A DNA stretch of 64,000 bases from an uncultured Bdellovibrionales bacterium (GTDB taxonomy: Bacteria; Patescibacteriota; Minisyncoccia; Moranbacterales; UBA1568). The stretch spans positions 4,126 to 68,125 of the forward strand of contig CAYLJX010000002.1 of the NCBI GenBank assembly GCA_964384235.1, written 5' to 3'. The position numbers were made by a program, and so were the translations under genes. Below the pieces are notes generated by a model, which ran no database searches, was not told the origin of the DNA, and saw only the letters and a program-made list of their open reading frames with translations. Shown here piece by piece: positions 19,587 through 40,272 of the stretch; positions within the stretch are counted from its first letter, which is position 1; each line of letters opens with the position of its first letter.

Positions 19587-19606
19587 TGTAAAATAGGAGG
19601 GGGACT

Positions 19607-20572: not shown

Positions 20573-20581
20573 CAGTCAACA

Positions 20582-24189: not shown

Positions 24190-24286
24190 GAGGATGACTG
24201 AAAGCTTTAGTCGATACCCTATATTTTAGCATAGAAGAGGCAGTGCAGAAGGGAGTGTGAAAATATGATAGAATGGATAAATTGCT

Positions 24287-27605: not shown

Positions 27606-27748
27606 GGGAGAAAATATTAGACGACATTGGAATTGTAGCATTTTTTTAGTTGTCATTCTCGCGGAAGCGGAAATCAAGGAGTCTCAAGGCTGATACATGA
27701 GAACAAGACGGAATTCTGTGGTGCCGGGATCCCTGCCTGCGCGGGGAT

Positions 27749-28063: not shown

Positions 28064-29242
28064 ATGAAGGAGCGGTTGGAGGACCTGCACACCAAGACCC
28101 ACCATATCCAGACCAAGGTGCTGCAGTTTATCAAGGAAATTTCCGGCTACCGTGTCGTGCGGGTTTTTCGTAACTATTCGGCCTTTTCCATCGTGGCGTC
28201 GAGCGCCCTCCTGGTGTCCGCGAGCAACCTCACCCAGGGCAAAGAGGCCGGGAGCGTGCTGTTCGGCTATGCCGGAGGCGATACGGCGGAGGAAAGCCTT
28301 TCTTCCAAACATCGTATCGCAGCTCAGGTGAGCAAAAAAGAGAACCTTTCGCTCGTGCCTTTGGCAAGCGCTTCCAATACCGTCGATCCGAGCCAAAAGG
28401 ACGAGATATCGCTCCTGGATGTCCAGGGAACGGCGCTTTCCGGGCAGGTGCTCCTTTCGACCCAGACCGCCGATATTGCCAAGGATCCGGAGGAGGACGG
28501 TGGCGTCAAGATCTATACCGTCGAATCCGGCGATACGGTGAGCTCCATCGCGGCAGCCCATGCGATCACGGTCAATACGATCCTCTGGGCCAACGACCTG
28601 GCCAACGTCGATGAGATCAAGCCGGGGGACCAGCTCTTCATCCTGCCGGTCGCCGGGTTCTCCTATGCCGTCAAGGACGGGGACACGATCGAGAAGATCG
28701 CCGAAAAATACAAGGCCGAAAAGGAAAAGATCATCGCCTACAACGAACTGCCGGCCAACGGCGAGGTGCGCGCGGGAGACGTGATCATCATTCCGGACGG
28801 TCGTAAGGAAGAAACCGCTCCCAAGCCGGCTCCGAGTACGGGCGAACTGGAGCGTCGTCAGTACGCGAGCTCGGCCGGTGGCGTGGCGACGGACATCTCC
28901 TCCGGTTTCCGCAAGCTCGAGGGTAAAGCCGGGACCGGACACCGGTTCCCGTACGGGTGGTGTACCTGGTACGTGGCGCAGAAGCGCTTCGTCCCGTGGG
29001 GTGGGAATGCCGGTACGTGGCTCTATAAAGCCAAGGCGCTCGGCTATCGCACCGGACGCAAGCCGACCGTCGGATCGATCATGGTGACGACGGAAAATCG
29101 CTACTACGGCCACGTGGCCCTCGTCGAGAAGGTGAGCGGCGATACCATCACCGTGAGCGAGATGAACTATGTCGGTTGGGGCAAGGTGAACCGCCGTACC
29201 CTCTCGGCCTCCAGCCGCGCGATCAAGGGATTCATTTACTAG
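28064..29242 (+). CDS. peptidoglycan hydrolase with two LysM domains and a C-terminal CHAP domain
   Basis: YTVESGDTVSSIAAAH...IKPGDQLFILP and YAVKDGDTIEKIAEKY (LysM). C-terminal FPYGWCTWYVAQKR...YGHVALVEKV (CHAP Cys/His). Start position uncertain. Confidence 0.75.
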   Translation: MKERLEDLHTKTHHIQTKVLQFIKEISGYRVVRVFRNYSAFSIVASSALLVSASNLTQGKEAGSVLFGYAGGDTAEESLSSKHRIAAQVSKKENLSLVPLASASNTVDPSQKDEISLLDVQGTALSGQVLLSTQTADIAKDPEEDGGVKIYTVESGDTVSSIAAAHAITVNTILWANDLANVDEIKPGDQLFILPVAGFSYAVKDGDTIEKIAEKYKAEKEKIIAYNELPANGEVRAGDVIIIPDGRKEETAPKPAPSTGELERRQYASSAGGVATDISSGFRKLEGKAGTGHRFPYGWCTWYVAQKRFVPWGGNAGTWLYKAKALGYRTGRKPTVGSIMVTTENRYYGHVALVEKVSGDTITVSEMNYVGWGKVNRRTLSASSRAIKGFIY

Positions 29243-29289
29243 CTTGTAGCTGGTAGGAAATAGCTTGTAGGATAATATGCAAGGAGAGA

Positions 29290-29315
29290 ATCCGGGTGAG
29301 AGCCCGGATTTTTTC
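29290..29315 (+). terminator. intrinsic terminator nested in a larger inverted repeat (29241-29339)
   Basis: ATCCGGGTGAGAGCCCGGAT TTTTTT flanked by AGCTTGTAGCTGGTAGG / CTACCAGCTACCAGCT arms. Confidence 0.65.
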
Positions 29316-29416
29316 TACCAGCTACCAGCTATTTCCTATCATCCTCACGAAGACTGTGGTATACTTCTAAGTGAAAAATCTTTCTTTCGAAACGACTGGC
29401 TTCTCTCGGGCAAGCT

Positions 29417-31306
29417 ATGACTTTTTTCAAAAAAAACAAAAAGAAAAATCTTTTCGTGTTTTTCTTGCTCCTCTTTATCGTGGGAGGTGTTTTGTTTTTC
29501 ATAGGGAACGATGCGGCTTTAGCTCAGGAAGCTAGTGGAGCACCAGAGGGGGACTCCTCTTGGATAGGAGACAAGGTAACCATTCTTTTCAAGGCGATAT
29601 TTTACGGGGTTTTCGTAGCGTTCGGATATCTGACCTCTCTCGCAGTAACCATCTTTGGTTGGGCTGTCAAACCGGAATTCATCTCCGGAAACACGGGGTT
29701 TCTCAACCGGGCGGCGATTTACGATCTTTGGAAATTCATCCGTGACTTCTTCAACCTGTTCTTCATCATCGTACTTCTTTACACGGCCTTCACTATCGTC
29801 TTCCAAGTGGCCAAGGATTACAAGAAAGCGCTCCTCAATCTCGTCATCATGGCGCTTCTGGTGAACTTCAGTTTCCCTATTTCGCGCTTCATCATCGACA
29901 CCGCCAATGTCCCGATGTATTTTTTCATCAATCAGGCCATGCCAAGTAACAAGGGAGAGGAGGCTTTCGGGACGATTCTCAGCGCATCGAAGATTCAGGA
30001 TATCCTCATCCCCGGGTATAGTTCCGGCAATGGGTGGGATTATGTCAAACAGGACAGCGTGTATTTCAGCTACCTCATCATAGCGATCATCTTCATGTTC
30101 CTTTTTTCCATATCGCTTCTGGTCCTGGCAGTAATGCTCGTCGTTCGTCTCATTGCGCTCGTCATCCTGGTGATCTTCTCCTCGGTCGGGTTCGCGGCGA
30201 CGATCATGCCCGGCTTCGACAAGTACGCCAAGATGTGGTGGGACAACCTGCTCAAGTACGCCTTCTTCGGTCCGGCCGCCATGCTCATGATGCTCATCGC
30301 GGTACGGTTCCTCGGGGCGATGCGGGAGGATGCCACATACAGCAATATCAAAAGTGTGGCGCTCAATAATGCCAGTTCGGCCGATTATATCGCCTCCATG
30401 GCGCTTTTCAGTATTCCGATCATCCTCATTTGGTTCTCTATCGGTCTCGCGCAGCAGTTCTCCATCGCCGGCGCGAGCATGGTCACTGGTAGGGGGAAGC
30501 AGTACGGAAAGTGGCTTGCGAAAAAGACATACAATAATCCATTGACGAATAATGCTTGGACAAGGGGAACTGCCTCCGGTCTGAAAGAGCGTGCTGAGAG
30601 CAATAAGTATGTCAAGTGGGTCATGCCGAAGACGTATTCCGATTTGAGCAAGAAGAAAGAGGAACAATATAAGGGATATGCATCCGGCGGAGCTACCGGA
30701 AAGGCAAGGGTTATCGAGAATCAACACAACAAGAAGGTGGCGGAGAAAGAGAAGGGGATGGATGAACTTCGCATAAGCGAGTCCCAGATGAAGCAAATGA
30801 TCGACCCGGCCAATAGTGGTAAATATAGTGCGGCGGAAAAGGAGGCCGCAGTGAATCTCTTGAATAAGAAAGAGAAGTTCGGCAATGCCGGCGAACTGCA
30901 TAACGCCGTCGAGGCGATCAAGGCTGCCAACAAGAACGAAAGCGCCCAGAAGGAAAAGATCACCGAACTCCTTAAGAAGGTAAAGGGTGATGGTCTCGAT
31001 GGTATGAGTGTGGCGCAGTATGACAATATCGCGAACCTTGGTCCGGAAATGAAGAAGGAGCTTGATAAGAAGCTGAAGAAAGAAGGAAAAACAAATGTGC
31101 TCGTTGAAGTCGAGATGAGAACTCCGGGCGCGAATCGTGCACAAATTGTCGGAGATATGCTTAAGGGGATGAAGACGGAGGATGTCGCGAAGCAAGATCT
31201 CTTTAAGGCAGGTAGTCCGAATAAGGCAGAAGCGGATGCTTGGCTCAGTTATGTCCGTACTCAGAACCCGGAGCGTTATCAGAAAATCAAGGCAGACCTT
31301 CCATAA
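29417..31306 (+). CDS. VirB6/TrbL-like polytopic membrane protein with long K/E-rich C-terminal extension
   Basis: Signal peptide, about 6 TM helices with an N-terminal extracytoplasmic region, hydrophilic coiled C-terminus; first gene of a T4SS-like cluster. Confidence 0.5.
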   Translation: MTFFKKNKKKNLFVFFLLLFIVGGVLFFIGNDAALAQEASGAPEGDSSWIGDKVTILFKAIFYGVFVAFGYLTSLAVTIFGWAVKPEFISGNTGFLNRAAIYDLWKFIRDFFNLFFIIVLLYTAFTIVFQVAKDYKKALLNLVIMALLVNFSFPISRFIIDTANVPMYFFINQAMPSNKGEEAFGTILSASKIQDILIPGYSSGNGWDYVKQDSVYFSYLIIAIIFMFLFSISLLVLAVMLVVRLIALVILVIFSSVGFAATIMPGFDKYAKMWWDNLLKYAFFGPAAMLMMLIAVRFLGAMREDATYSNIKSVALNNASSADYIASMALFSIPIILIWFSIGLAQQFSIAGASMVTGRGKQYGKWLAKKTYNNPLTNNAWTRGTASGLKERAESNKYVKWVMPKTYSDLSKKKEEQYKGYASGGATGKARVIENQHNKKVAEKEKGMDELRISESQMKQMIDPANSGKYSAAEKEAAVNLLNKKEKFGNAGELHNAVEAIKAANKNESAQKEKITELLKKVKGDGLDGMSVAQYDNIANLGPEMKKELDKKLKKEGKTNVLVEVEMRTPGANRAQIVGDMLKGMKTEDVAKQDLFKAGSPNKAEADAWLSYVRTQNPERYQKIKADLP

Positions 31307-31327
31307 ATTACCTCCTAAGCAGTTCGT

Positions 31328-32458
31328 GTGAGTCCGGAGAGAAAAAACAACCCGATCTATTATCCAATGCTTGTTTCTGATCAAGGCACTGCTGATGCAG
31401 CGGATCAGAAGATTGAGGATGCGCGTTGGAAAACGCTTCGTGCTTTATCCAAAGAAAAGCGCGATCTTCTTGTTTCTACGGAACTTCCTTTGGCTCTGAT
31501 GAGCTTACAAGACACGTATCATTTGAGCGATGTGGTCATTGGCAGCATAAGTCTCTTCATCCGAAAGATCTTTTTCGGCGAGTTGACGCTGGAACAGGCG
31601 GAGGCGAAGATCGGGAGCATACTCATGACGACCGGGGGAGGCGATCCCAACCAGGCCAAGGCAATCGTGGAGTTCATCCGAAAGGACATCATGACGATCA
31701 AGCCGAAACCGGAAGTGGAGGAGAACGATGAGATGAAGGAGGAAGAGAAGCCGGCTGCGGGAACGGTCAGTATGCCGCTCTTGCAGGCGCTGTCCAAGTA
31801 CGAGCAGCTGGCCAATCAGTTGATCACCGGAGAGCGGATCAGGATCAAGGGTCAAGGGGAGGCCGTGCGGCCGTCGCTTCTCAACTGGATCAAGTATTAT
31901 CGCGACGAGCTCGGCGTGGGCTATCACGATAACGTGCAGCGCGGACAGTTCCTCTTCCGTTCGGAGAACGGCAAGCACCTCTCCACCGAGGAGCGCGAGC
32001 GCATCAATCTCGTCCTGCGTTCCATCGAGGAGAACCTGCCAGTCCAGATCGATACGGAACGCAGTGAGATCGTGTTTCCGCGAAGCAACGCTCCCACTCA
32101 GTCGAAACCAAGAACGGACAGGGCGGACGTGATGGCCACGGCCAAAGTGGAGAAGGGACCGGCTCTCCCTGGTACTCCGGCGCATGAGACTCCGGCCAAC
32201 AGCGCGTTCGTGAGCGGTAATCTGGGTATGGTGCAGGGGACGCATTTCGGGACTTCGGAACAGAAAGCTTCAGAGAAGGGGTCGCTCAGCTTTTCTTCCT
32301 CACATGTCTTCCCGGCTGAGAAAGAGAAGGCCTCGAACCCTTCGACAAGCTCAGGGCAAGCACCGAAATCTGCTCCGCAAACTCCCCAGGCTCCCGTATC
32401 GAAACCCAATCCCTTCCGTATCCGCCCAGTCAGTCTGTCGAAGAAGAATGGCAAGTGA
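31328..32458 (+). CDS. hypothetical protein (T4SS-like cluster)
   Basis: 376 aa soluble protein; Pro/Ser/Ala-rich low-complexity C-terminus. Confidence 0.45.
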   Translation: MSPERKNNPIYYPMLVSDQGTADAADQKIEDARWKTLRALSKEKRDLLVSTELPLALMSLQDTYHLSDVVIGSISLFIRKIFFGELTLEQAEAKIGSILMTTGGGDPNQAKAIVEFIRKDIMTIKPKPEVEENDEMKEEEKPAAGTVSMPLLQALSKYEQLANQLITGERIRIKGQGEAVRPSLLNWIKYYRDELGVGYHDNVQRGQFLFRSENGKHLSTEERERINLVLRSIEENLPVQIDTERSEIVFPRSNAPTQSKPRTDRADVMATAKVEKGPALPGTPAHETPANSAFVSGNLGMVQGTHFGTSEQKASEKGSLSFSSSHVFPAEKEKASNPSTSSGQAPKSAPQTPQAPVSKPNPFRIRPVSLSKKNGK

Positions 32459-32560
32459 TAGCACGCGTGAGAGAAGAGCCGGAACGTGATATAATTGACA
32501 AGCTCTGGTATTTTTCCTCATTTCCTATCTCCTATCTCCTACTTCCTATCTCCTGTTTTT

Positions 32561-32998
32561 ATGATGTTCAGTGTCCCACAATTCATCGATGTCGAGGACA
32601 AGATCGCCGGTCCGCTCACCTGGAGGCAGCTCCTGTGGATGATCGGGATGGGAGCGATACTCCTTTTCTTTTACAGTATCTTCGATACGGCGCTCTTCAT
32701 CGTCATCGCGGTGCCGACGACGCTCCTCTTCATCGGGCTGGCCTTCTATCGGCCGAACGGCGTCTCGCTCACCACATTCATCTTTCATGGCATCCTCTTC
32801 TTCTTCCGTCCCAAGGTAGCAGTGTGGGAGCGGCCGGTACGGTCTCTCGGAGCGTCGCAGCGGACCGCCGAGGAGGCTGAGAAGAAGCGTCAGGCGGCCC
32901 TGGCGGCGGAGGCCGAGATGAAGGCGAAAAAGGATCTGAGCCAGGACAAGCTTCGTGAATTGGCGCGTATTCTGGATAGCCGAGGACGGGGAGTGTAA
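32561..32998 (+). CDS. PrgI/VirB3-like small membrane protein
   Basis: MMFSVPQFIDVEDKIAGPLTWRQLLWMIGMGAILLFF... has the two-TM architecture of PrgI-family proteins. Start at ATG 32561 within track ORF 32495-32998. Confidence 0.55.
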   Translation: MMFSVPQFIDVEDKIAGPLTWRQLLWMIGMGAILLFFYSIFDTALFIVIAVPTTLLFIGLAFYRPNGVSLTTFIFHGILFFFRPKVAVWERPVRSLGASQRTAEEAEKKRQAALAAEAEMKAKKDLSQDKLRELARILDSRGRGV

Positions 32999-33037
32999 GC
33001 GAGTTTTCTCTCCCACAATACAAACAACTCTCGAAAA

Positions 33038-33721
33038 ATGGAATTACTCAAACCAAAAAACAAGCCGGCAAGCGGCGGCAGCACACAGAAATACGTGGAC
33101 GTCGAGGAGATCCGCGACAGCGTCATCGTGCTCAAGAGCGGTGCGCTTCGTTCGGTATTGCTCGTGTCATCGCTTAACTTCGATCTCAAGTCGAGCGAGG
33201 AGCAGGATGCCATCATCGGGCAGTACCAGAATTTCCTCAACTCGCTCGATTTCCCCGTGCAGATCGTCATTTCTTCGCGACGTTTCAACATCGAGCCGTA
33301 CCTCGAGCTCCTCAAGGATCAGGAGAAGCAGCAGGAAAACGAGCTCCTGCGCTTCCAGATTTCCGAATACAAGGGCTTCATCAAGAACCTGACGGAAGTC
33401 TCGAACATCATGGCCAAGTACTTCTACGTGGTCATACCCTTTTCTCCGGTGGAGGACAAGAAGAGTGGGTTCTTCTCGCAGCTCTCCGGCATCTTCCAAC
33501 CCAAGCAGAGCATCGGGCTCCGCGGCGATCTCTTCGATACGTACAAGAGCCAGCTTTTCCAGCGCGTGGACCATGTCGCGGCGGCCCTCTCCGGAACGGG
33601 ACTGCGCGTCACGCAGCTCAATACCGAAGAGATCATCGAACTCCTGTACAACACCTACAACCCTTCGCTCTTCACGACTGCCATCGTCAAGAACATCGAA
33701 GCGGTGGAACTCGCCCCCTAA
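33038..33721 (+). CDS. VirB4-family N-terminal domain protein (split from the ATPase)
   Basis: YVDVEEIRDSVIVLKSGALRSVLLVSS...QDAIIGQYQNFLNSLDFPVQIVI resembles the N-terminal domain of VirB4/TrsE/PrgJ. Ends 12 nt before the ATPase ORF in a different frame. Confidence 0.55.
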   Translation: MELLKPKNKPASGGSTQKYVDVEEIRDSVIVLKSGALRSVLLVSSLNFDLKSSEEQDAIIGQYQNFLNSLDFPVQIVISSRRFNIEPYLELLKDQEKQQENELLRFQISEYKGFIKNLTEVSNIMAKYFYVVIPFSPVEDKKSGFFSQLSGIFQPKQSIGLRGDLFDTYKSQLFQRVDHVAAALSGTGLRVTQLNTEEIIELLYNTYNPSLFTTAIVKNIEAVELAP

Positions 33722-33732
33722 AACACATCGAC

Positions 33733-35754
33733 ATGAGCGGTATTTTTTTCAAAGACAGATATGGATCGGAGGAACTTTCCGTTCCCGACATCTCTCCGGT
33801 GACGGCCGGAGCCGCTTCGGCTGAGCCGTCTGCCGGGGTGAAGTCTTCGCCGGTCGCTACTCCTCCCTCTGTTCCCGCTCCCGCTCCTGCGGCTGTTTCT
33901 CCAAGGAGAGTCCAGGAGAAAGTCACCGAGAGGCGTCCTGAGAAAAAGGAACCGGCTCCCGGATTGTTTTCCCCGTCCCGCAGCACGAGCGAGAGCGAAC
34001 GCCTCTACCAGCAGGGTATCGCGACTATCAAGGATCTGATCGCTCCGCCCGCCATCAAGCTCTCGCCCAACAGCATGCACATCGGTGACGTGATCGCTCG
34101 CACCTACTTCGTCATCGCCTATCCGCGTTTCCTCTCGACCAACTGGTTCTCGCCGATCATCAACATCGACTTCGCGATGGATATCTCGCTCTTCGTCCAC
34201 CCGATCGACACGGCGGAGATCCTCAAGAACCTGCGCAAGTCAGCCACCCAGGTGCAGTCGCAGATCCATATCGAGGCCGAGGAGGGAAAGATCCGCAATC
34301 CCGTCCTGGAGACCGCCCTGGAAGACATCGAGAGTCTCCGTGACAAACTTCAGCAGGGGACGGAGAAATTCTTCCGCTTCGGTCTCTACATGACCATCTA
34401 CGCGCAAGATGAAAAGGATCTCAATGACAAGTGTCAGGCGGTGGAATCCATCCTCGAGGCCCAGCTCGTCTATACCAAGCCGGCCGTGCTCCGCATGGAT
34501 CAGGGATTCGCGGCGACCCGGCCGCTCGCGAACGATGTCTTGGATGTAGCCAACAACCTCAACACCGAACCGCTCTCGACGACCTTTCCGTTTGTCTCGT
34601 CCGACCTTTCTTCCAACGAGGGCATCCTCTACGGTATCAACCGGCACAACAACTCGCTCGTGCTCTTCGACCGTTTCAAGATGGAGAACGCCAACATGGT
34701 GGTCTTTGCCAAGTCCGGTGCCGGTAAGAGCTATACCGTCAAGCTCGAGGTGCTCCGCTCCATGATGTTCGGGGCGAGCGTCATCATCATCGATCCGGAA
34801 AACGAATACAAGCATCTCACCGAGACGGTGGGCGGGACGTTCCTCCAGGTCGCGCTCAATTCCGACGTGCACCTCAATCCCTTCGATCTGCCGAAGAAGA
34901 TCGACGACGAGGATAGTCAGGGTGTCTTCCGCAACACCATCGCCAACCTGGTCGGCCTCCTCCATCTCATGCTGGGATCGGTGACGCCGGAGGAGGATTC
35001 GATCCTCGACCGGGCCATCCGCGAGACTTATGCCATCCGGGATATCACGGAGATGAGCGACTTCTCACAGCTTACCCCGCAGTCGTTTCCGACCATGTCG
35101 GACCTCTATACCGTCCTCCAGAACATGGACGGGGCTGAATCGCTCGCGGCGCGTCTCGAGCGCTATACCGAGGGCATCTTCGGCGGCTTCCTCAACCGGC
35201 AGACCAACGTCGAGACGGACAATCAGCTGGTGACCTTCAATATCCGCGACCTGGAGGAGGAGCTCCGTCCCATCGCCATGTACATCATCCTGCAGTTCAT
35301 CTGGAACGAAATCCGCACGAAGATGAAGAAACGCCTCGTCGTCGTCGACGAAGCCTGGGTCATGATGCAGCATGACGATGCCGCGTCGTTCCTCTTCGGT
35401 ATCGCCAAGCGCTGCCGCAAGTACTACACGGGTCTCACCACCATCACGCAGGACATCGCGGACTTCGCCTCGTCGCGCTACGGCAAGCCAATCATCACCA
35501 ACTCCTCGATGCAGCTCCTCCTGCGCCAGTCGCCGGCCTCCATCGATTTCGTGTCGGAGACCTTTTATCTCACCGACCACGAGAAGTTCCTCCTCCTGGA
35601 GAGCAACGTCGGCGAGGGTATCTTCTTCGCGGGACAGAAGCATGCCGCCATCAAGGTGATCGCCTCCTACAGCGAGGACCAGATCATCACGTCCGACCCG
35701 CGCCAGCTCCTGGAAATCGAGGAGGCTAAGAAGGATTTCGATTCGGGAAATTAA
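33733..35754 (+). CDS. VirB4/TrsE/PrgJ-like conjugal-transfer ATPase
   Basis: Walker A VVFAKSGAGKSYT, Walker B LVVVDEAWVMM, C-terminal VirB4 motifs; about 100-aa Pro/Ala-rich low-complexity N-terminal segment. Confidence 0.85.
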   Translation: MSGIFFKDRYGSEELSVPDISPVTAGAASAEPSAGVKSSPVATPPSVPAPAPAAVSPRRVQEKVTERRPEKKEPAPGLFSPSRSTSESERLYQQGIATIKDLIAPPAIKLSPNSMHIGDVIARTYFVIAYPRFLSTNWFSPIINIDFAMDISLFVHPIDTAEILKNLRKSATQVQSQIHIEAEEGKIRNPVLETALEDIESLRDKLQQGTEKFFRFGLYMTIYAQDEKDLNDKCQAVESILEAQLVYTKPAVLRMDQGFAATRPLANDVLDVANNLNTEPLSTTFPFVSSDLSSNEGILYGINRHNNSLVLFDRFKMENANMVVFAKSGAGKSYTVKLEVLRSMMFGASVIIIDPENEYKHLTETVGGTFLQVALNSDVHLNPFDLPKKIDDEDSQGVFRNTIANLVGLLHLMLGSVTPEEDSILDRAIRETYAIRDITEMSDFSQLTPQSFPTMSDLYTVLQNMDGAESLAARLERYTEGIFGGFLNRQTNVETDNQLVTFNIRDLEEELRPIAMYIILQFIWNEIRTKMKKRLVVVDEAWVMMQHDDAASFLFGIAKRCRKYYTGLTTITQDIADFASSRYGKPIITNSSMQLLLRQSPASIDFVSETFYLTDHEKFLLLESNVGEGIFFAGQKHAAIKVIASYSEDQIITSDPRQLLEIEEAKKDFDSGN

Positions 35755-35763
35755 CGTTCGCTT

Positions 35764-36258
35764 ATGGGTGTCCGTGAGATGCGGGAAGACCTGAGGACGA
35801 TGAAGCGTGTCTCATCGCAATCGCGACGTATACAGACGGTCGTGCGCCAGGAATCCGGAGAAGGGAACTTCACAGGGGAAAAACCATCCAAGCTCCTGTA
35901 TATGGGAGTGGCGATGATCGCTCTTTTCAAGGATACCCTGGACCTGGCCATCGGTCCGCTTTTGGGGATCGTGACGGTCATCGGACTGTGTACCTCGTTT
36001 CTCATCTGGATCCTCCTCCTGGTCTTCGACCGCTCCGGCGGAAGGCACAACATGAAGCTGGCCCGAAGCGTCCTGCAGCTGGTCGTGGCCATCATAGAGT
36101 CGCTGGGCATCGGCCTCAACTATCTTCCCTGGCAGACGGCGACAGTCGTCATCCTCTATGTGATGGCCAAGAAGGCCTGGCGGAAACAGGCAAAGGAAGC
36201 GAGTGCGCAGAGGGGGCAGGGGACAGGGTATGTCGATGAGGATTTTCTCGAAGTATAG
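35764..36258 (+). CDS. small membrane protein (T4SS-like cluster)
   Basis: 164 aa with 3-4 TM helices. Confidence 0.45.
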   Translation: MGVREMREDLRTMKRVSSQSRRIQTVVRQESGEGNFTGEKPSKLLYMGVAMIALFKDTLDLAIGPLLGIVTVIGLCTSFLIWILLLVFDRSGGRHNMKLARSVLQLVVAIIESLGIGLNYLPWQTATVVILYVMAKKAWRKQAKEASAQRGQGTGYVDEDFLEV

Positions 36259-36272
36259 TCCAGAATGTATCT

Positions 36273-36926
36273 ATGGTTTCTCTCCCTTTCGATCAGAAGC
36301 GTTTCATCGTGACGGGACTGCTCGTCCTGTTTTCTCTCGGTTTTTTCGGGTTTTTCGAGGAGAGCGAAACGGTCAGTCCGGTGATCCAGAGTCTCATCGT
36401 GAGCACGGTGCTCTTCTTGGTGATTCCGGTTTTGTATTGTAAAATGGTACTCAAAGAGCCCTTGAAAAACATAGGTTGGCAGGACGGTAACGCGAAGGCC
36501 GGGACGGTTTCCGGTATCCTGGGAGTGGCTTCGGCGATCGCAGCGATATTCGCACTCATCACCTTTTCATCATTCGAGGACCACTATGGTTTTCCCGCCC
36601 TCGTGGAGGAAAACTTCTGGTGGTTCATGCTGTATGAGCTGGTTCTGGTGAGTTTCATCGCGTTCCTTTATGAGGTTTTCTTCCGCGGACTGATACAGCT
36701 TTCCTGGCTCAAGTCTCTCGGGGTGTGGGGTGTCGTGGCCCAGGCGCTGCTCTTCACGAGTCTCCTGTTTTTGAGCGGGGATATCTCCTGGCAGCAGGCG
36801 CCGCTCCTCCTCTTCAGTCCCATCGCTGGTCTCGTGGCGCACTTCTCCCGTTCCGTGTGGTATTCTTTCGCTGCCAGCTGGGTGTTCCTTTTCCTGACCG
36901 ACGTGCTTCTGCTCATCCTTCGATAA
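36273..36926 (+). CDS. CPBP-family (CAAX/Abi) intramembrane metalloprotease
   Basis: YEVFFRGL (EExxxR-type motif) and later FxxxH/H motifs; 6 TM helices. Confidence 0.6.
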   Translation: MVSLPFDQKRFIVTGLLVLFSLGFFGFFEESETVSPVIQSLIVSTVLFLVIPVLYCKMVLKEPLKNIGWQDGNAKAGTVSGILGVASAIAAIFALITFSSFEDHYGFPALVEENFWWFMLYELVLVSFIAFLYEVFFRGLIQLSWLKSLGVWGVVAQALLFTSLLFLSGDISWQQAPLLLFSPIAGLVAHFSRSVWYSFAASWVFLFLTDVLLLILR

Positions 36927-36931
36927 TCCCT

Positions 36932-39694
36932 ATGCGGTTTTTCAAAAAACAAAAATACATCCTTGCGCTGTTTCTGGTCGCGGAACTTTTCGTGACTACC
37001 GCTTCCCCTGCGATGGCGGGTCTGTTCGGTGGTGGCGGGGCCAAGCTCCCTTCGGTGTCCAAGGTCGCCGGAGAGCTGGAAAAGCGCTACCATCTGAACC
37101 TTGAATCGATCCAGGACAACGGCGAGTCTTTCAATACTACCGGCAACAAGGTGCCGACTCCGGAAGTGACCCTGTTTTTCAGCCCGAGTGATCCGAAGTC
37201 CGGAGAGAAGCTGACGGCGAGGGCTCTCCCTGTCTATTATTCGAATACCAAGGAGAACCTCTACTTCACCTGGTATCTGAAACGGAAGGGTTGCAATATC
37301 GGCGGCTCCGCCCCGGCAGGCTGTGACTTGGACGGCAACGGCAGCGTGACGGTCGAGGACTGGAAGATCGCGGCCGCGCAGATTCTGGCTCAGAACGGAT
37401 TCGATACGACGAGAGCGAACTACTCGAGCAATACGGATAACGACGGGTATCGGGCCAAGTTCGGCGGGGATAGCCGTACCAATACTCCGGACCGCTGCTA
37501 TGTCCATGATAACTCGTCCGGGATCAACTATGAGTTGACCGAGAACGACAACGGTATCGACTTCAGCTGTCCGAGCGGGACGTCACCGGTCTGTCTGGTC
37601 GGAGAGGGTGATGTGACGAGCGGTACGAACGACACACTGGGAGGAAATTCATACTTCGATATCACCGATTCAAATACCTGTACGGTCTCCGGGTATCCGT
37701 ATTGCGCGAGCGGCGGGGTGGCGACATGCAATAACGGGACGCCGCGCTGTGTCGCTGATCCGAACGCCCTGACGAACGATTGCGGGACGGCGCTTTCTTC
37801 CTGCAGTTCGACCTCCGAGCGGAGTACCAATCCGGTCTGCGAGCACCTGTTTCCGGATGCTCCCGGCGATCGGACGGGCGACGGGTCGTTCGGGGCGAGC
37901 GAGGAGCGTTTCTGGGGGACGGACCCGAGCGATTCCGATACGGCCGACAACGGCAACAAGGACGAGGCGAATATCGCAGGACTAGGGAGAGATACTTTCA
38001 CCTGGAACTACGCTCCCGGCGACAAGGTCGGTGTGGCGGTCGAGGGGGTGTCCACGATCGCGACCAAGCATGACGATGCCTCGATGATGATCATGTGGGC
38101 CATGCCCAAGAAGGATTGTCCGGTGCGCAACACTGGCTCCTATACCAAGACGATCAAGGGTTACAAAGTCGTCATCCCTACGGCGAGCATGGACCTCAAT
38201 GACTGCCTCGAGAGAAACCTGGTCGATCCGACGGAAGGCGGCCAGGCGACCAACCTGGATGTTTCCGTGAACGCGACTCCCGATTACCCGATCAATGACG
38301 AGACTCCCGACAAGGGCGGGGATGTCGTGACGGCCACCGCGAGCGTTGCCAACGCCGATCGGAACCTGACCAAGATACTTTTCGATTGGCGGGTGGATAT
38401 AAGCGACAACGTCCAGTTCAGCCGGACGTCGGGGGATGTGGCGACCGGTATCCAGGAAGAGCTCCGTGCCTTAGGCCTTCTGGGGAATACCAAAGGGAAC
38501 GCGCTCGATACGGTCCAGCTCAAACTCGATATTTCTACCGGAACGATCCTCGGCGGTCGTCCGCTCACCTCCTATCTCAACAACGGTGCCGGGTACCTGC
38601 GCTTCGCGGTCGAGGTATCGGAGAGTTTCGAAGGAGGCATCACCCGGCGCGGCCGAAGCGACGTCATCGTGAAGTTCACTTCGACCAACCGCAAGATCAC
38701 GGCGTACCGGGTAGAACCGACCCTGGTCGGGGGAGCGATGCGGGCCAGACTGGCGGCCGCCCCGGCAGGCATCATCTGCAACGGCAATGCCCTGGACCGC
38801 AATGCCTGTCGCGTGATCAAGAATGAGATCATCGGCCTGCGGATCGACCCGACCGGACTCAGTAATTTCCAGTGGACCATCAATGGCGATACGCTCAGTT
38901 GCAGTACCAAGGTTTCTCCGGATTGTCCGGATGACCGGCAGAACGAGATGAACTTCTTCCCGGTCGCAGGCAATGTCGGTGACACCTATACGGTATCCGT
39001 GACCGCCAACGAGATCGCGACGGACAAGGTGGTGACCCTGGCACGGACCTTTCACGTCGTCCAGCCGGAGGTATCGATCGTGACGCTCGATCAGGAGGCC
39101 GCCTGGCCGAAGTTCCTCGGACAGTATCGGGATATCACGGACGCCTCCAATTGCAGCGGAGGGCTCTGCGATGACTACAGTACGACGATCTTCCAGGCCT
39201 TTTCCGGAAGCGGTGTGCGCTTCAAGGCGGATTTTCTCCCGGGATTCCTGGGGGCGACGGCCGAGCGTCAGTGGAATATCGACGGTTTCGATGTCCCGGA
39301 GAACGCTCCCGGCGAGATCGCCTTTCAGGCCACCAAGGAGGCACCGAGCGTGTACAATGTGAGTCTTAACGCCTTGGTCGTGCAGTCCCCGGAAACCCGT
39401 CGGGCGCTCCTGGACATATGGAATATCTCGCCGCTTGATTCCCCGGAAATCCATTTTTCGAGCACGAATCAGGTGGAGCTCCAGGACCCCGAGTTCGTCA
39501 AGGGACCGAGTACCGGAACCGGGAAATTCCTGGCGGCGATAGCCGGGTATGTCCCCTCGAGCCTCCTCTTCGCGTTCCGGATGCTCCTCTCCGGGTTCCT
39601 CATCCTCTTCACGACCGGATTCATCATGGCGCTCATCCCCGAGCAGCGGGCCGCCAGAGCCTCGTCTTCCCGCAGGGGAGAGGATATCGGATGA
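36932..39694 (+). CDS. large Cys/Gly/Thr/Asn-rich cell-surface protein with signal peptide and C-terminal TM anchor
   Basis: Start MRFFKKQKYILALFLVAELFV (signal); about 920 aa; many Cys in apparent disulfide-rich modules; C-terminal FLAAIAGYVPSSLLFAFRMLLSGFLILFTTGFIMALI anchor then basic tail. Confidence 0.6.
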   Translation: MRFFKKQKYILALFLVAELFVTTASPAMAGLFGGGGAKLPSVSKVAGELEKRYHLNLESIQDNGESFNTTGNKVPTPEVTLFFSPSDPKSGEKLTARALPVYYSNTKENLYFTWYLKRKGCNIGGSAPAGCDLDGNGSVTVEDWKIAAAQILAQNGFDTTRANYSSNTDNDGYRAKFGGDSRTNTPDRCYVHDNSSGINYELTENDNGIDFSCPSGTSPVCLVGEGDVTSGTNDTLGGNSYFDITDSNTCTVSGYPYCASGGVATCNNGTPRCVADPNALTNDCGTALSSCSSTSERSTNPVCEHLFPDAPGDRTGDGSFGASEERFWGTDPSDSDTADNGNKDEANIAGLGRDTFTWNYAPGDKVGVAVEGVSTIATKHDDASMMIMWAMPKKDCPVRNTGSYTKTIKGYKVVIPTASMDLNDCLERNLVDPTEGGQATNLDVSVNATPDYPINDETPDKGGDVVTATASVANADRNLTKILFDWRVDISDNVQFSRTSGDVATGIQEELRALGLLGNTKGNALDTVQLKLDISTGTILGGRPLTSYLNNGAGYLRFAVEVSESFEGGITRRGRSDVIVKFTSTNRKITAYRVEPTLVGGAMRARLAAAPAGIICNGNALDRNACRVIKNEIIGLRIDPTGLSNFQWTINGDTLSCSTKVSPDCPDDRQNEMNFFPVAGNVGDTYTVSVTANEIATDKVVTLARTFHVVQPEVSIVTLDQEAAWPKFLGQYRDITDASNCSGGLCDDYSTTIFQAFSGSGVRFKADFLPGFLGATAERQWNIDGFDVPENAPGEIAFQATKEAPSVYNVSLNALVVQSPETRRALLDIWNISPLDSPEIHFSSTNQVELQDPEFVKGPSTGTGKFLAAIAGYVPSSLLFAFRMLLSGFLILFTTGFIMALIPEQRAARASSSRRGEDIG

Positions 39695-39760
39695 GACTTC
39701 TCTTTTGATGTGAGTACACAAAAACCCGACATCTCATAAGGTGTCGGGTTTTCTCATATG

Positions 39761-39842
39761 TGGGTAGGGAGAGACTCGAACTCTCATGGATTGCTCCGCT
39801 AGCTCCTAAGGCTAGTGCGTATACCAATTCCGCCACCTACCC
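39761..39842 (-). tRNA. tRNA-Leu(TAG)
   Basis: Minus-strand GGGTAGG TG GCGG..ACGC A CTAGC CTTAGGA GCTAG (anticodon loop CUUAGGA, anticodon UAG); variable arm; T-arm GAGAG TTCGAGT CTCTC; acceptor CCTACCC A. CCA not encoded. Confidence 0.75.
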
Positions 39843-39853
39843 AGCATCTTTTC

Positions 39854-40165
39854 CTAAATGATTTTCGCCTTTTCTCCGAACACTGAGAGGAGTCGTTCGG
39901 TTTCTTCCTTCACCGGACCCTCGTTGTCATACTCTCCGTGATGACGCGTGGTCTCACCGTACGTGTGTTTCTTCTGGTCCAGATGGAGACTGAGGAAGAG
40001 TTTTGTGCCTTCCAACCGGGTGTAGCAGTGGAAACGCGGATACCCTGAACTACCTAAGACCCGGACGAAACTCATTTCCTTATTTTCCTCACGCTGGAAA
40101 GCGTACCCGGCCCGTCGGAGGAGCGAGACCGGATTTTCAGGGATTGATTCGATGAGGAGTTTCAT
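39854..40165 (-). CDS. hypothetical protein (103 aa) between two tRNA genes
   Basis: Intact ORF; no recognisable motif. Confidence 0.4.
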   Translation of the reverse strand: MKLLIESIPENPVSLLRRAGYAFQREENKEMSFVRVLGSSGYPRFHCYTRLEGTKLFLSLHLDQKKHTYGETTRHHGEYDNEGPVKEETERLLSVFGEKAKII

Positions 40166-40201
40166 AAGATTCCAAAAAAGCCCCTTTCAGGGCTTGTCTT
40201 G

Positions 40202-40272
40202 TCGGAGTGCCGAGAATCGAACTCGGATTACACGCACCCGAAGCGTGCGTAATACCATTATACCACACTCCG
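40202..40272 (-). tRNA. tRNA-Pro(CGG)
   Basis: Minus-strand CGGAGTG ... CACGC TTCGGGT GCGTG (anticodon CGG, U33, G37) ... CCGAG TTCGATT CTCGG CACTCCG A. 3-bp D-stem; CCA not encoded. Confidence 0.75.

What the first reader, a model, noticed from the sequence alone, without database searches (positions are those of the whole stretch)
28064..39694. Gram-positive-style type IV secretion/pilus-like gene cluster next to a tyrosine recombinase
A co-directional run encodes a LysM-CHAP cell-wall hydrolase (PrgK/TcpG-like function), a VirB6/TrbL-like protein, a PrgI/VirB3-like protein, a VirB4 ATPase, small membrane proteins, a CPBP protease and a >900-aa Cys-rich surface protein with signal peptide and C-terminal anchor. 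No relaxase, coupling protein (VirD4) or VirB11 was seen. That argues for a minimal T4SS-like apparatus (pilus, DNA uptake or adhesion as reported for ultra-small bacteria) rather than a conjugative element. The giant surface protein is a plausible pilin, adhesin or substrate.
Basis: partly seen in the sequence, partly recalled or inferred. Interest (0 to 1): 0.6.

Follow-up and report, generated by a model that had tools for sequence, protein, structure and literature searches.

The report
Moranbacteria chromosomal type IV secretion locus
This is the chromosomal, non-conjugative type IV secretion gene cluster already described for ultra-small Patescibacteria, here in a Candidatus Moranbacteria genome, with a lineage-specific surface-protein add-on, so it is real but not a new kind of system.

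Summary
The gene run at 28064-39694 is real. It is the Patescibacteria-type type IV secretion system (T4SS), a relative of Gram-positive conjugation machinery, published in 2023 and 2025.

- **Source:** a Candidatus Moranbacteria chromosome.
- **Firm parts:** PrgI/VirB3, a TrsD protein that is the split-off N-terminal domain of VirB4, and a VirB4 ATPase of the CD1110 family.
- **Weakly supported part:** the 629-aa membrane protein looks VirB6-like only by weak sequence and fold evidence. It has no TrbL HMM hit.
TrsD and a 376-aa orphan cytoplasmic protein.
- **Core:** PrgI-TrsD-VirB4 plus a 164-aa membrane protein.
- **Downstream pair:** a CPBP-like protein and a 920-aa surface protein follow VirB4 in this lineage. 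The surface protein has 20 conserved Cys, tandem Ig-like domains and a conserved C-terminal anchor. The CPBP-like protein lacks the catalytic Glu and His residues, so it is probably not a protease.
- **Not a mobile element:** the recombinase is a housekeeping Xer. The whole neighbourhood keeps its gene order across about 60 species. There are no att repeats, and no relaxase or VirD4 in 64 kb.
- **LysM-CHAP hydrolase:** it tracks Xer, not VirB4.
- **Pilins:** no VirB2-like pilin is detectable here, although a sister lineage has two beside PrgI.

Function is inferred to be host contact and secretion, not conjugation. Novelty: a new member of a known kind. Interest: about 0.3.

The parts
28064..29242 (+). 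Membrane-anchored LysM-LysM-CHAP peptidoglycan hydrolase. It is a possible VirB1/PrgK-like helper, but its membership of the system is uncertain.
   Evidence: Pfam LysM 3.8e-22 and CHAP 7.3e-19. The CHAP domain is 35% identical to pCF10 PrgK residues 753-859, E 3e-9. The catalytic Cys (GWCTWY) and His (GHVALVE) are readable in the sequence. A 174-bp gap separates it from the next gene. It sits next to Xer in 41 of 41 loci, including sister-lineage loci where it lies 8 kb from virB4. It is directly upstream of the 629-aa gene in only 38 of 45 loci.
29417..31306 (+). 629-aa polytopic membrane protein: a signal/TM segment, about 7 TM helices, and a 220-aa cytoplasmic all-helical domain. It is the candidate VirB6-like channel subunit.
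   Evidence: No Pfam hit in 28 members and no PDB profile hit. NCBIfam: 6 of 28 members hit the CD3337/EF1877 mobilome membrane protein family (best E 1.3e-8), 2 hit pLS20_p028 and 1 hits TraJ. AF2 model pLDDT 82. The top Foldseek PDB hits are TrwI/VirB6 of R388, with E 0.2-0.45, probability 0.89-0.96 and target-normalised TM-score (TMt) 0.35-0.46. The architecture matches SEML1_0011/0013 of Southlakia.
31328..32458 (+). 376-aa soluble orphan protein. It has a conserved central domain, a Pro-rich linker, and two conserved short C-terminal motifs (LSFSSxHVLPAEK and NPFxIRPVS).
   Evidence: Alignment A6. 288 homologues, all hypothetical and all from Moranbacteria, with no Pfam domain. No Pfam or NCBIfam hit. 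No TM segment. It always sits between the 629-aa gene and PrgI.
32495..32998 (+). PrgI/VirB3-like protein with two TM helices. The true start is probably the ATG at 32561, because homologues are about 135 aa long.
   Evidence: PF12666, 42.5 bits against a cut-off of 27. Two TM segments. Found upstream of TrsD-VirB4 in 72 of 72 loci.
33038..33721 (+). TrsD-like protein: the N-terminal domain of VirB4 encoded as a separate polypeptide.
   Evidence: NCBIfam: VirB4_plasma positions 100-233, E 5.4e-11; TrsD/TraD family E 8.1e-7; CD1110 positions 3-119, E 4.7e-4. All are below the curated cut-offs. The VirB4 gene product aligns only to PrgJ 223-772, so the first 220 residues or so are missing there. 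Median identity across species is 70%.
33733..35754 (+). VirB4-family ATPase of the CD1110/MPF_FATA type, with a variable Pro/Ala/Ser-rich N-terminal extension of about 85 aa.
   Evidence: NCBIfam NF045971, 360 bits against a cut-off of 325. Pfam TraG P-loop 2.2e-26. BLASTP to pCF10 PrgJ, E 4e-43. Walker A (AKSGAGKS) and Walker B (LVVVDE) are present. Median identity across 80 species is 80%, higher than for IF-2.
35764..36258 (+). 164-aa membrane protein with 3-4 TM helices and the motif ALLKDLLDLxGIGSLPGIGT...FDRS...GFGLNFLPIET. It is the fourth member of the conserved core.
   Evidence: Alignment A4. It follows VirB4 in both lineages, including L076 and L077. 147 representative clusters in 1.84 billion proteins; some carry long cytoplasmic extensions. 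No Pfam or NCBIfam hit. It is not a PF18895 pilin.
36273..36926 (+). CPBP/Abi-like protein with 6-7 TM helices that lacks the canonical catalytic residues. It is the probable membrane partner of the surface protein.
   Evidence: Pfam Rce1-like, 22.9 bits against a cut-off of 22.4. NCBIfam MrtA 9e-7, far below cut-off. Alignment of 32 homologues: [Y/F]EVFFRG in place of EExxFRG, no conserved His anywhere, and D210 retained. The reference motifs come from PMC11980579 and PMC3578759. It is followed by the surface-protein gene in 60 of 61 loci, and the exception is an ORF-calling artefact.
36932..39694 (+). 920-aa surface protein: Sec signal peptide, Cys-rich N-terminal region, about 5-6 Ig-like beta-sandwich domains, a conserved C-terminal segment (KYLAAIASYIPASVMFSFRILLS..LILFT...LPE), a TM helix and a basic tail.
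   Evidence: 20 Cys, each conserved in 52-56 of 56 homologues. 406 homologues, none with a name or a Pfam domain. AF2 pLDDT 79. Foldseek matches tandem Ig/FN3/cadherin adhesion molecules, E 4e-8 to 1e-5. The start at 36932 agrees with the deposited protein P0121.
26613..27677 (-). Context only: a Xer-type tyrosine recombinase, which is housekeeping and not an element integrase.
   Evidence: NCBIfam XerD 244 bits, XerC 240 bits and XerA 242 bits (the last above its cut-off of 220). Conserved at this position in 45 loci at 68% median identity.
39760..40272 (-). Context only: tRNA-Leu (39760-39842), a conserved 103-aa ORF (39854-40165) and tRNA-Pro (40201-40272). These mark the downstream boundary of the cluster.
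   Evidence: ARAGORN and Rfam. The ORF is conserved in 42 loci. No direct repeat of the tRNA ends occurs at the upstream boundary.

Best explanation
The region is the chromosomal, vertically inherited Patescibacteria-type T4SS locus of a Candidatus Moranbacteria bacterium. This system descends from the monoderm MPF_FATA conjugation machinery.

Shown:
- Eight genes (29417-39694) lie 5-39 bp apart on one strand, like an operon.
- They encode a polytopic membrane protein, an orphan cytoplasmic protein, PrgI/VirB3, TrsD, VirB4, a 164-aa membrane protein, a CPBP-like membrane protein and a 920-aa disulfide-rich surface protein.
- TrsD is the detached N-terminal domain of VirB4. VirB4 has intact Walker motifs.
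- The surface protein carries multiple Ig-like domains and a conserved C-terminal anchor.

Inferred mechanism:
- PrgI and TrsD tether the VirB4 ATPase to the membrane.
- The 629-aa protein serves as the VirB6-like translocon and platform.
- The 164-aa protein is an obligatory core accessory.
- The surface protein is exported by Sec and stays anchored by its C-terminal helix.
- The catalytically degenerate CPBP-like protein holds or positions that helix.
- The surface protein projects outward as the contact or adhesin element towards a host cell.

The machine then moves proteins, or possibly nucleic acid, across the epibiont envelope in support of a host-dependent lifestyle. It does not carry out conjugation. 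The LysM-CHAP hydrolase may help the apparatus pass the cell wall, but it may equally be a general wall hydrolase.
For: - Domain and family hits for VirB4, PrgI, TrsD, CHAP and CPBP.
- Direct comparison with pCF10 PrgJ and PrgK.
- Weak but consistent VirB6-type signals for the 629-aa protein.
- 80 related loci, most labelled Moranbacteria or Patescibacteria; a large share carry an 'uncultured Bdellovibrionales' label that looks wrong.
- VirB4 is 70-88% identical across them, and the gene order Xer-LysMCHAP-629-376-PrgI-TrsD-VirB4-164-CPBP-Surf-tRNA-CCA-IF2 is conserved.
- Flanking housekeeping genes diverge to the same degree as the cluster genes.
- No ORF I scanned with Pfam across the 64 kb hit a relaxase, VirD4 or VirB11 family.
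- No att-like repeats and no G+C anomaly.
- The surface protein has 20 conserved Cys, an Ig-like fold and a conserved C-terminal segment.
- CPBP-Surf adjacency holds in 60 of 61 loci.
- Literature: the Patescibacteria T4SS with VirB4, TrsD, PrgI and VirB6 and usually no relaxase, with KsgA often nearby (PMC12102498). It is essential in Southlakia epibionticum and has a similar gene order (PMC10633639).
Against: - No experiment exists for any Moranbacteria, so the function is inferred entirely from homology and from Saccharibacteria genetics.
- The VirB6 assignment is not statistically significant: best Foldseek E is 0.19, hhalign against PrgH gives probability 0.9%, and Pfam finds nothing.
- No VirB8-like component was identified.
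- A VirD4 or a relaxase could lie elsewhere in the genome, because only 64 kb were seen.
- The CPBP-Surf pair is absent from the virB4 neighbourhood of the sister lineage (L071-L080), so it is not a universal part of the machine.
- Its link to the T4SS rests on conserved adjacency alone.
Confidence: 0.8

Rival explanations
1. The cluster is an integrated conjugative or mobilisable element, or its remnant. It would have inserted next to tRNA genes by the adjacent tyrosine recombinase and then lost its relaxase and coupling protein.
For: - A tyrosine recombinase lies immediately upstream.
- tRNA-Leu and tRNA-Pro lie immediately downstream.
- The T4SS genes belong to the family used by Gram-positive ICEs and plasmids.
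Against: - The recombinase scores as Xer (240 bits to XerD, XerC and XerA).
- It is conserved at this position together with PcrA, CCA-adding enzyme and IF-2 in dozens of species, at identities like those of the T4SS genes.
- There are no flanking direct repeats and no compositional break.
- No ORF I scanned with Pfam hit a relaxase or VirD4 family.
- VirB4 is more conserved than IF-2.
- Published analysis finds this T4SS to be chromosomal and clade-specific (PMC12102498).
Confidence: 0.03
2. The apparatus is a DNA or nucleotide import machine, working like the archaeal Ced system or Helicobacter ComB. It would feed a bacterium that cannot make nucleotides, rather than acting as an export or effector system.
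For: - The VirB4 has secondary hits to the Ced import ATPases CedB (E 1.6e-15) and CedD.
- There is no relaxase or T4CP.
- PcrA/UvrD helicase and ComM lie in the neighbourhood. In the sister lineage ComM sits immediately after the 164-aa core gene.
- The literature notes comF, recG and radA next to virB4 in class ABY1.
Against: - The CedB hit scores 57 bits against a cut-off of 700 and is far weaker than the conjugative VirB4 families.
- In this lineage ComM is 14 kb away, among housekeeping genes.
- The Saccharibacteria paper describes the T4SS as essential for growth on the host and discusses it as a DNA or protein delivery system (PMC10633639).
- No DNA-binding component is recognisable in the operon.
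Confidence: 0.12
3. The CPBP-like gene and the 920-aa surface protein form an independent surface module: a sorting enzyme with its single target, or simply an adhesin. On this view it happens to sit downstream of virB4 in this lineage and has no functional tie to the T4SS.
For: - The pair is absent from the virB4 neighbourhood of the sister lineage, which keeps PrgI-TrsD-VirB4-164.
- Two-gene 'CPBP sorting enzyme plus one C-terminally tagged target' neighbourhoods are a known pattern unrelated to T4SS (PMC11980579).
- The C-terminus of the surface protein is tripartite-like: a conserved motif, a TM helix and a basic tail.
Against: - Only 5-14 bp separate the genes from VirB4 through to the surface protein.
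- The order is invariant in 60 of 61 loci, across species whose surface proteins are only 35-60% identical.
- The lineage that has the pair lacks a detectable VirB2 pilin near virB4, while the lineage that lacks the pair has two pilins. This suggests substitution of the extracellular part.
- The CPBP-like protein lacks the catalytic Glu and both His, so a sortase-like cleavage role is unlikely.
Confidence: 0.3

Closest known systems
Patescibacteria (CPR) T4SS, as surveyed by Quinonero-Coronel et al. 2025 (PMC12102498) and shown to be essential in Southlakia epibionticum ML1, genes SEML1_0006-0019 (Wang et al. 2023, PMC10633639)
   Same: - Chromosomal location and a VirB4 related to the MPF_FATA class.
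- A separate TrsD-like protein, PrgI/VirB3, and a large VirB6-like membrane protein with a helical cytoplasmic domain placed upstream.
- Exported or wall-active proteins downstream of VirB4.
- No relaxase or coupling protein nearby.
- KsgA in the vicinity.
- Core gene order (VirB6-like ... PrgI-TrsD-VirB4) is the same as in Southlakia.
   Different: - No PF18895/VirB2-like pilin array is detectable in the 64-kb window or within 10 kb of virB4 in about 70 related loci.
- Downstream of VirB4 there are no M15/M23 or lysozyme proteins.
- Instead there is a 164-aa membrane protein, a CPBP-like protein without catalytic residues, and a 920-aa Cys-rich multi-Ig surface protein. The paper does not mention these and states that no adhesins were detected.
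- There is also an orphan 376-aa cytoplasmic protein.
Enterococcus faecalis pCF10 Prg/Pcf conjugative T4SS (an MPF_FATA prototype)
   Same: - PrgI family protein.
- VirB4 of the same NCBIfam family (CD1110), at 25% identity over 550 residues.
- CHAP domain like that of PrgK.
- A polytopic membrane protein just upstream of PrgI, as with PrgH.
- A large surface protein in the same transfer region (PrgB).
   Different: - No PcfC/VirD4, relaxase or PrgL/VirB8-like protein was found.
- The VirB4 N-terminal domain is split off as TrsD.
- The hydrolase has no lytic transglycosylase or lysozyme domain and lies upstream.
- The surface protein has a TM anchor rather than LPXTG and no similarity to PrgB.
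- The locus is chromosomal and vertically inherited.
pGO1/pSK41 Trs system (the MPF_FATA subclass that carries TrsD)
   Same: A separate TrsD-type protein homologous to the VirB4 N-terminal region sits next to the VirB4-type ATPase (NCBIfam NF041427, E 8e-7; described in PMC12102498).
   Different: - The score is far below the family cut-off (29 against 200 bits).
- The rest of the Trs gene set was not found.
CPBP 'myxosortase' sorting systems (MrtX/MrtJ plus MYXO-CTERM or JDVT-CTERM targets; PMC11980579)
   Same: - A CPBP-fold membrane protein is encoded next to a single surface protein.
- That surface protein's C-terminus has a conserved motif, a TM helix and a basic tail.
- The best NCBIfam hits of the CPBP-like protein are MrtA, MrtS and MrtP.
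   Different: - All hits are far below the cut-offs.
- The first Glu of EExxxR and both His are missing from the whole family.
- The C-terminal motif has no invariant Cys.
- The closer functional analogy is a non-catalytic Abi/CPBP protein that binds the TM helices of a partner, such as Abx1-CovS (PMC3578759).

Membership tests
Type IV secretion system, MPF_FATA-derived Patescibacteria type | VirB4-family ATPase (the hallmark of all T4SS) | tested here: met
   NCBIfam CD1110 VirB4-like, 360 bits against a cut-off of 325. TraC and VirB4_CagE also hit. Pfam TraG P-loop 2e-26. BLASTP to PrgJ, E 4e-43. Walker A and B are present.
Type IV secretion system, MPF_FATA-derived Patescibacteria type | VirB3/PrgI membrane protein adjacent to VirB4 | tested here: met
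   PF12666, 42.5 bits against a cut-off of 27. Two TM helices. Adjacent in 72 of 72 loci.
Type IV secretion system, MPF_FATA-derived Patescibacteria type | TrsD-like protein homologous to the VirB4 N-terminal region (the commonest accessory component in Patescibacteria) | tested here: met
   E 5.4e-11 to the VirB4_plasma N-terminal region and 8.1e-7 to the TrsD/TraD family, both below curated cut-offs. The VirB4 ORF lacks the first 220 residues or so of PrgJ. Pairwise BLAST to PrgJ is not significant.
Type IV secretion system, MPF_FATA-derived Patescibacteria type | VirB6/PrgH/TrbL-type polytopic channel protein | tested here: inconclusive
   - No Pfam hit in 28 members.
- hhalign against PrgH gives probability 0.9%.
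- 6 of 28 members hit the CD3337/EF1877 mobilome membrane family (E 1.3e-8), 2 hit pLS20_p028 and 1 hits TraJ.
- The Foldseek top hits are TrwI/VirB6, with probability 0.89-0.96 but E 0.2-0.45.
Type IV secretion system, MPF_FATA-derived Patescibacteria type | VirB4 falls inside the monophyletic Patescibacteria clade of the VirB4 tree | not tested
   No tree was built. Indirect evidence: the 80 nearest loci mostly carry Moranbacteria or Patescibacteria titles, at 70-88% identity.
Type IV secretion system, MPF_FATA-derived Patescibacteria type | Cell-wall hydrolase (VirB1/PrgK/TrsG-like) belonging to the system | tested here: inconclusive
   The CHAP domain is homologous to the PrgK CHAP domain and the gene is co-directional. 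However, it is next to Xer in 41 of 41 loci, directly upstream of the T4SS genes in only 38 of 45, and 8 kb from virB4 in the sister lineage.
VirB2 / T4SS_pilin (PF18895) pilus | Small pilin with two TM helices, encoded near virB4 | tested here: not met
   No cluster protein hits PF18895 or PF04956. An HMM built from sister-lineage pilins (themselves PF18895, E 1e-10 and 5e-13) finds nothing among window ORFs of 50 aa or more, or in about 70 related loci. The rest of the genome was not seen.
Conjugative element (ICE or plasmid transfer region) | Relaxase and type IV coupling protein (VirD4/TcpA) | tested here: not met
   No relaxase or VirD4/TcpA family was hit by any ORF I scanned with Pfam across the 64 kb. 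Only a trivial P-loop hit of VirB4 to VirD4-type models appears. The genome outside the window was not seen.
Conjugative element (ICE or plasmid transfer region) | Element integrase, att repeats, and presence that varies between related genomes | tested here: not met
   The recombinase is Xer-type. There are no flanking direct repeats. Synteny with housekeeping flanks is conserved across species.
CPBP (Rce1-like/Abi) intramembrane glutamic protease | Rce1-like domain recognised by the Pfam model | tested here: met
   22.9 bits against a gathering score of 22.4 for the window protein, and 23.4 for L021. The L061 homologue fails. Membership is borderline.
CPBP (Rce1-like/Abi) intramembrane glutamic protease | Invariant catalytic residues: EExxxR, the His of FxxxH, and HxxxN (PMC11980579; PMC3578759) | tested here: not met
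   In 32 homologues motif 1 reads [Y/F/L]EVFFRG, so the first Glu is lost. No His is conserved anywhere in the protein. Only the second Glu, the Arg and a C-terminal Asp (D210) remain. I mapped the motifs by eye.
Myxosortase-type C-terminal sorting signal (MYXO/JDVT/Synerg-CTERM) | Tripartite C-terminus with an invariant Cys in the signature motif | tested here: not met
   The C-terminus has a conserved YIPAS motif, a TM helix and a basic tail, but no Cys. MrtA, MrtS and MrtP hits are far below the cut-offs.
Ced / ComB-type DNA import T4SS | Import-type ATPase (CedB) and partner proteins | tested here: not met
   CedB scores 56.8 bits against a cut-off of 700 and CedD 21 bits against 600. No other Ced or ComB component was recognised.

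The most novel reading that the evidence does not exclude
In this Moranbacteria lineage the extracellular part of the Patescibacteria T4SS has been swapped. The VirB2-like pilins kept by a sister lineage beside PrgI are replaced by a membrane-anchored, ten-disulfide, multi-Ig-domain protein. That protein docks to the machine through a catalytically dead CPBP-fold partner, which recognises its conserved C-terminal helix. The result would be a pilus-less, adhesin-tipped contact apparatus.
Probability: 0.3. Interest if true: 0.5.

Novelty: new member of a known kind. Interest (0 to 1): 0.3.

Why it matters
The Patescibacteria T4SS is thought to be central to how these ultra-small, host-dependent bacteria live. 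It is essential in the one genetically tractable species, yet its substrate and mechanism are unknown.

This locus adds no new principle. It does give a clean inventory for Moranbacteria, a group with no cultured or genetically studied member:
- a four-gene invariant core (PrgI, TrsD, VirB4 and a 164-aa membrane protein);
- a lineage-specific set of an orphan cytoplasmic protein, a degenerate CPBP-like protein and a large Ig-like surface protein.

The published survey reported no adhesins. If the surface protein really is the contact element of the machine, it is a concrete candidate for host recognition in this lineage. It would also be an example of modular replacement of the pilus.

Tried and rejected
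- **TrbL/VirB6 by HMM.** Pfam on 28 homologues of the 629-aa protein gave nothing. A PDB sequence-profile search gave only noise. hhalign against pCF10 PrgH was not significant.
- **PF19590.** A few homologues carry precomputed PF19590 hits, but these were not reproduced by this Pfam copy. The accession was not found in the literature.
- **164-aa protein as PrgL/VirB8 or as a pilin.** hhalign against PrgL was not significant, and there were no Pfam or NCBIfam hits in 35 members.
- **376-aa protein.** No family hit in 28 members. All 288 homologues are unannotated.
- **CPBP-like profile against PDB sequences.** No hit.
- **Rosetta-stone fusions.** The long proteins that carry the 164-aa module have extensions unrelated to any cluster protein and no Pfam domain.
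- **att sites and island signals.** Only chance-level short repeats turned up, and there is no G+C shift.
- **Promoter and terminator scan.** Not above the shuffled expectation in any useful way.
- **Pilins near the SBP gene.** In the sister lineage the pilins sit next to the SBP gene. In the window, the region downstream of the SBP gene holds TypA/BipA instead.

Full report
**Observation**

The co-directional gene run is real and its coordinates are accurate. Pfam and NCBIfam scans give the following.

| Coordinates | Call | Evidence |
|---|---|---|
| 28064-29242 | LysM-LysM-CHAP hydrolase | Pfam 3.8e-22 and 7.3e-19 |
| 32495-32998 | PrgI family protein | PF12666, 42.5 bits, cut-off 27 |
| 33733-35754 | VirB4 ATPase | NF045971 'CD1110 family', 360 bits, cut-off 325; TraC and VirB4_CagE also hit |
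| 36273-36926 | Borderline Rce1-like/CPBP protein | 22.9 against 22.4 bits |
| 36932-39694 | 920-aa protein | Signal peptide, 20 Cys, C-terminal TM helix; no family hit |

The ORF at 33038-33721 is a TrsD-like protein that matches the N-terminal part of VirB4 models (E 5.4e-11 and 8.1e-7). The ORF at 31328-32458 is a conserved 376-aa gene. The large antisense ORFs in the region have no hits and look like by-products of the 55% G+C content.

**Source and context**

A scan of one genome per species with the VirB4 protein returned 80 loci. Most carry Candidatus Moranbacteria, Moraniibacteriota or Patescibacteria titles, at 70-88% VirB4 identity. This phylum lies in the Parcubacteria/Patescibacteria group. 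Many other records are labelled 'uncultured Bdellovibrionales', which looks like a deposit error.

The rest of the window is ordinary chromosome:
- FtsH, TilS, GyrA, PNPase, ComM, a G5-DPBB protein, KsgA, UbiA and PcrA upstream;
- two tRNAs, CCA-adding enzyme, IF-2, TypA and a copper-handling cluster downstream.

No ORF I scanned with Pfam across the 64 kb hit a relaxase, VirD4/TcpA or VirB11 family.

**Not a mobile element**

The recombinase at 26613-27677 scores about 240 bits to XerD, XerC and XerA models. tblastn of every window protein against the 80 loci shows the following conserved order in the window's lineage (about 70 loci):

PcrA(+) Xer(-) LysM-CHAP(+) 629(+) 376(+) PrgI(+) TrsD(+) VirB4(+) 164(+) CPBP(+) Surf(+) 103-aa ORF(-) CCA(-) IF2(-)

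Here 629, 376 and 164 are the proteins of those lengths, and Surf is the 920-aa surface protein. Median identities are:

| Protein | Median identity (%) |
|---|---|
| VirB4 | 80 |
| IF-2 | 75.5 |
| TrsD | 70 |
| Xer | 68 |
| CCA-adding enzyme | 68 |
| PrgI | 51 |
| Surf | 49 |
| CPBP-like | 46 |
| 164-aa protein | 44 |
| 376-aa protein | 42 |
| 629-aa protein | 37 |

 The cluster and its housekeeping flanks have therefore diverged together. VirB4 is more conserved than IF-2. There are no att-like direct repeats and no compositional break.

**Components**

- **VirB4 and TrsD.** Against pCF10, the window VirB4 aligns to PrgJ residues 223-772 (E 4e-43). The first 220 residues or so of a full-length VirB4 are missing. 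TrsD matches that N-terminal region of VirB4 profiles, so the VirB4 is split. Walker A (AKSGAGKS) and Walker B (LVVVDE) are intact.
- **The CHAP domain.** It is 35% identical to the PrgK CHAP domain (E 3e-9).
- **The 629-aa protein.** It has about 8 hydrophobic segments and a confidently modelled helical cytoplasmic domain (AF2 pLDDT 82).
  - Pfam finds nothing in 28 family members.
  - 6 of 28 members hit the CD3337/EF1877 'mobilome membrane protein' family (E 1.3e-8). Others hit pLS20_p028 and TraJ.
  - The top Foldseek PDB hits are TrwI/VirB6 chains of the R388 T4SS (probability 0.89-0.96, E 0.2-0.45).
  - The same TM-plus-helical-domain architecture is annotated as VirB6-like in Southlakia SEML1_0011/0013.
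  - I rate it as probably a VirB6 analogue, but not proven.
- **The 164-aa protein.** It has 3-4 TM helices and a strongly conserved motif. It follows VirB4 in both lineages. It defines a small family of 147 representative clusters with no known relatives.
- **The 376-aa protein.** It is soluble, has two conserved C-terminal short motifs and is restricted to this lineage.

**Two lineages**

Loci L071-L080 keep PrgI-TrsD-VirB4-164 but differ around it.
- Upstream of PrgI they carry one or two PF18895 T4SS pilin genes, where the sequence extends that far (E 1e-10 and 5e-13).
- Downstream they carry ComM, G5-DPBB, KsgA, PcrA, Xer and LysM-CHAP.

An HMM built from those pilins finds nothing in the window or in the window-lineage loci. 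The LysM-CHAP gene is next to Xer in 41 of 41 loci. It is directly upstream of the 629-aa gene in only 38 of 45 loci, and it is absent upstream in L002, L061 and L070. Its assignment to the T4SS is therefore uncertain.

**The CPBP-Surf pair**

The pair follows VirB4-164 in 60 of 69 loci. The exceptions are the sister lineage and one ORF-calling artefact. CPBP is followed by Surf in 60 of 61 loci, with a gap of only 5 bp in the window.

The surface protein:
- has 406 unannotated homologues;
- has all 20 Cys conserved;
- gives an AF2 model (pLDDT 79) with a Cys-rich N-terminal part and a string of beta-sandwich domains;
- matches tandem Ig/FN3/cadherin adhesion molecules in Foldseek (E 4e-8 to 1e-5);
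- ends in an unusually conserved C-terminus: KYLAAIASYIPASVMFSFRILLS..LILFT...LPE followed by basic residues.

The CPBP-like protein:
- has best NCBIfam hits to the myxosortase-type proteins MrtA, MrtS and MrtP, all far below cut-off;
- shows [Y/F]EVFFRG instead of EExxFRG in an alignment of 32 homologues, with no conserved His at all.

The family's catalytic set is EExxxR, the TM5 His and HxxxN (PMC11980579; PMC3578759). I therefore read it as a non-catalytic CPBP fold. Abx1, which binds the TM helices of CovS without needing its catalytic residues, is a precedent for such a protein acting as a membrane partner.

**Mechanism**

Shown: gene content, operon-like spacing, intact ATPase motifs, the split VirB4, strong conservation, the surface-protein architecture, and the absence of conjugation-specific genes in 64 kb.

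Inferred:
- PrgI and TrsD tether the VirB4 motor.
- The 629-aa protein forms the membrane translocon.
- The 164-aa protein is a core accessory.
- The Sec-exported surface protein stays anchored, is held by the CPBP-like protein, and provides contact with a host cell.
- The machine supports the host-dependent lifestyle by exporting proteins, or less likely by importing nucleic acid.

The import rival draws on the ComM and PcrA neighbours and weak CedB similarity. I cannot exclude it.

**Comparison with what is known**

This is the system described by Quinonero-Coronel et al. 2025. In that survey:
- VirB4 was present in about 80% of Patescibacteria genomes and formed a clade nested in MPF_FATA;
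- TrsD was the commonest accessory, followed by PrgI/VirB3 and VirB6;
- VirB2 pilin arrays were frequent and relaxases rare;
- KsgA and replication genes were often nearby;
- VirB1-type hydrolases were associated with VirB4 mainly in Paceibacteria.

Wang et al. 2023 showed the Saccharibacteria version to be essential. The survey does not mention CPBP proteins and states that no adhesins were detected. The CPBP-Surf module, the 376-aa protein and the 164-aa core protein are lineage-level details that appear undescribed.

**Verdict**

The locus is a new member of a known kind. Interest is 0.3. The most novel reading still open is a swap of pilin for anchored adhesin, with a dead CPBP partner. 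I give it about 0.3 probability and moderate interest.

Noticed in passing
window 45165-45602 and 51290-57408: A copper-handling gene set. It comprises a plastocyanin/azurin-like protein, a multicopper oxidase with an extra cupredoxin domain (51290-53230), a CsoR-type metal-sensing repressor (53243-53521), an HMA-DsbD_2-cupredoxin fusion (53553-54905) and a P-type ATPase with an HMA domain (55045-57408). This is a sizeable investment for a reduced genome.
   Followed up: no
L071-L080, e.g. L077 6663-8237: A sister lineage keeps PrgI-TrsD-VirB4-164 but has one or two PF18895 T4SS pilin genes directly upstream of PrgI. These carry Cys-rich N-terminal extensions, and one is a tandem double pilin domain. 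ComM, G5-DPBB and KsgA lie directly downstream. The 629/376/CPBP/Surf genes are absent from that neighbourhood.
   Followed up: partly
window 31328-32458; protein P0241: The deposited gene call for the 376-aa protein starts 57 codons further downstream, giving 319 aa. The alignment shows conserved residues (YYPML, W34) in the region that call leaves out, which favours the longer GTG-start ORF.
   Followed up: partly
window 29417-29440 and 36932-36955: The 629-aa membrane protein and the 920-aa surface protein begin with near-identical N-termini (MTFFKKNKKK and MRFFKKQK). This shows up as a 26-nt direct repeat (D19).
   Followed up: no
proteins P0376, P0380, P0457: In other lineages the roughly 100-aa membrane module of the 164-aa core protein is fused to cytoplasmic extensions of 400-900 aa. 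These have Pro-rich linkers plus globular parts, no Pfam domain, and no similarity to other cluster proteins.
   Followed up: partly
loci L004, L005, L008 and many others: Dozens of public MAG records holding this Moranbacteria-type locus at 75-88% VirB4 identity are titled 'uncultured Bdellovibrionales bacterium'. This looks like a systematic taxonomic mislabel in one deposit series.
   Followed up: no
window 18066-21436: ComM (Mg-chelatase-like), a G5/DUF348/DPBB (RpfB-like) wall protein and KsgA form a block. In the sister lineage this block sits immediately after the T4SS core. In the window it is 12-15 kb upstream, which indicates a rearrangement between the lineages.
   Followed up: partly
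window 50169-51230: A membrane-anchored protein with a long coiled-coil region and a C-terminal matrixin-type (M10) zinc-protease motif, HELGHALGIEH.
   Followed up: no
window 21809-25009(-), 48057-49955(-), 59753-63745(-): Very long ORFs lie antisense to, or overlap, real genes (UbiA/PcrA and TypA). They are rich in D, E, L, V and R and have no family hits. They inflate naive ORF lists in this 55% G+C sequence. The real genes at 59.7-63.7 kb were not resolved.
   Followed up: no
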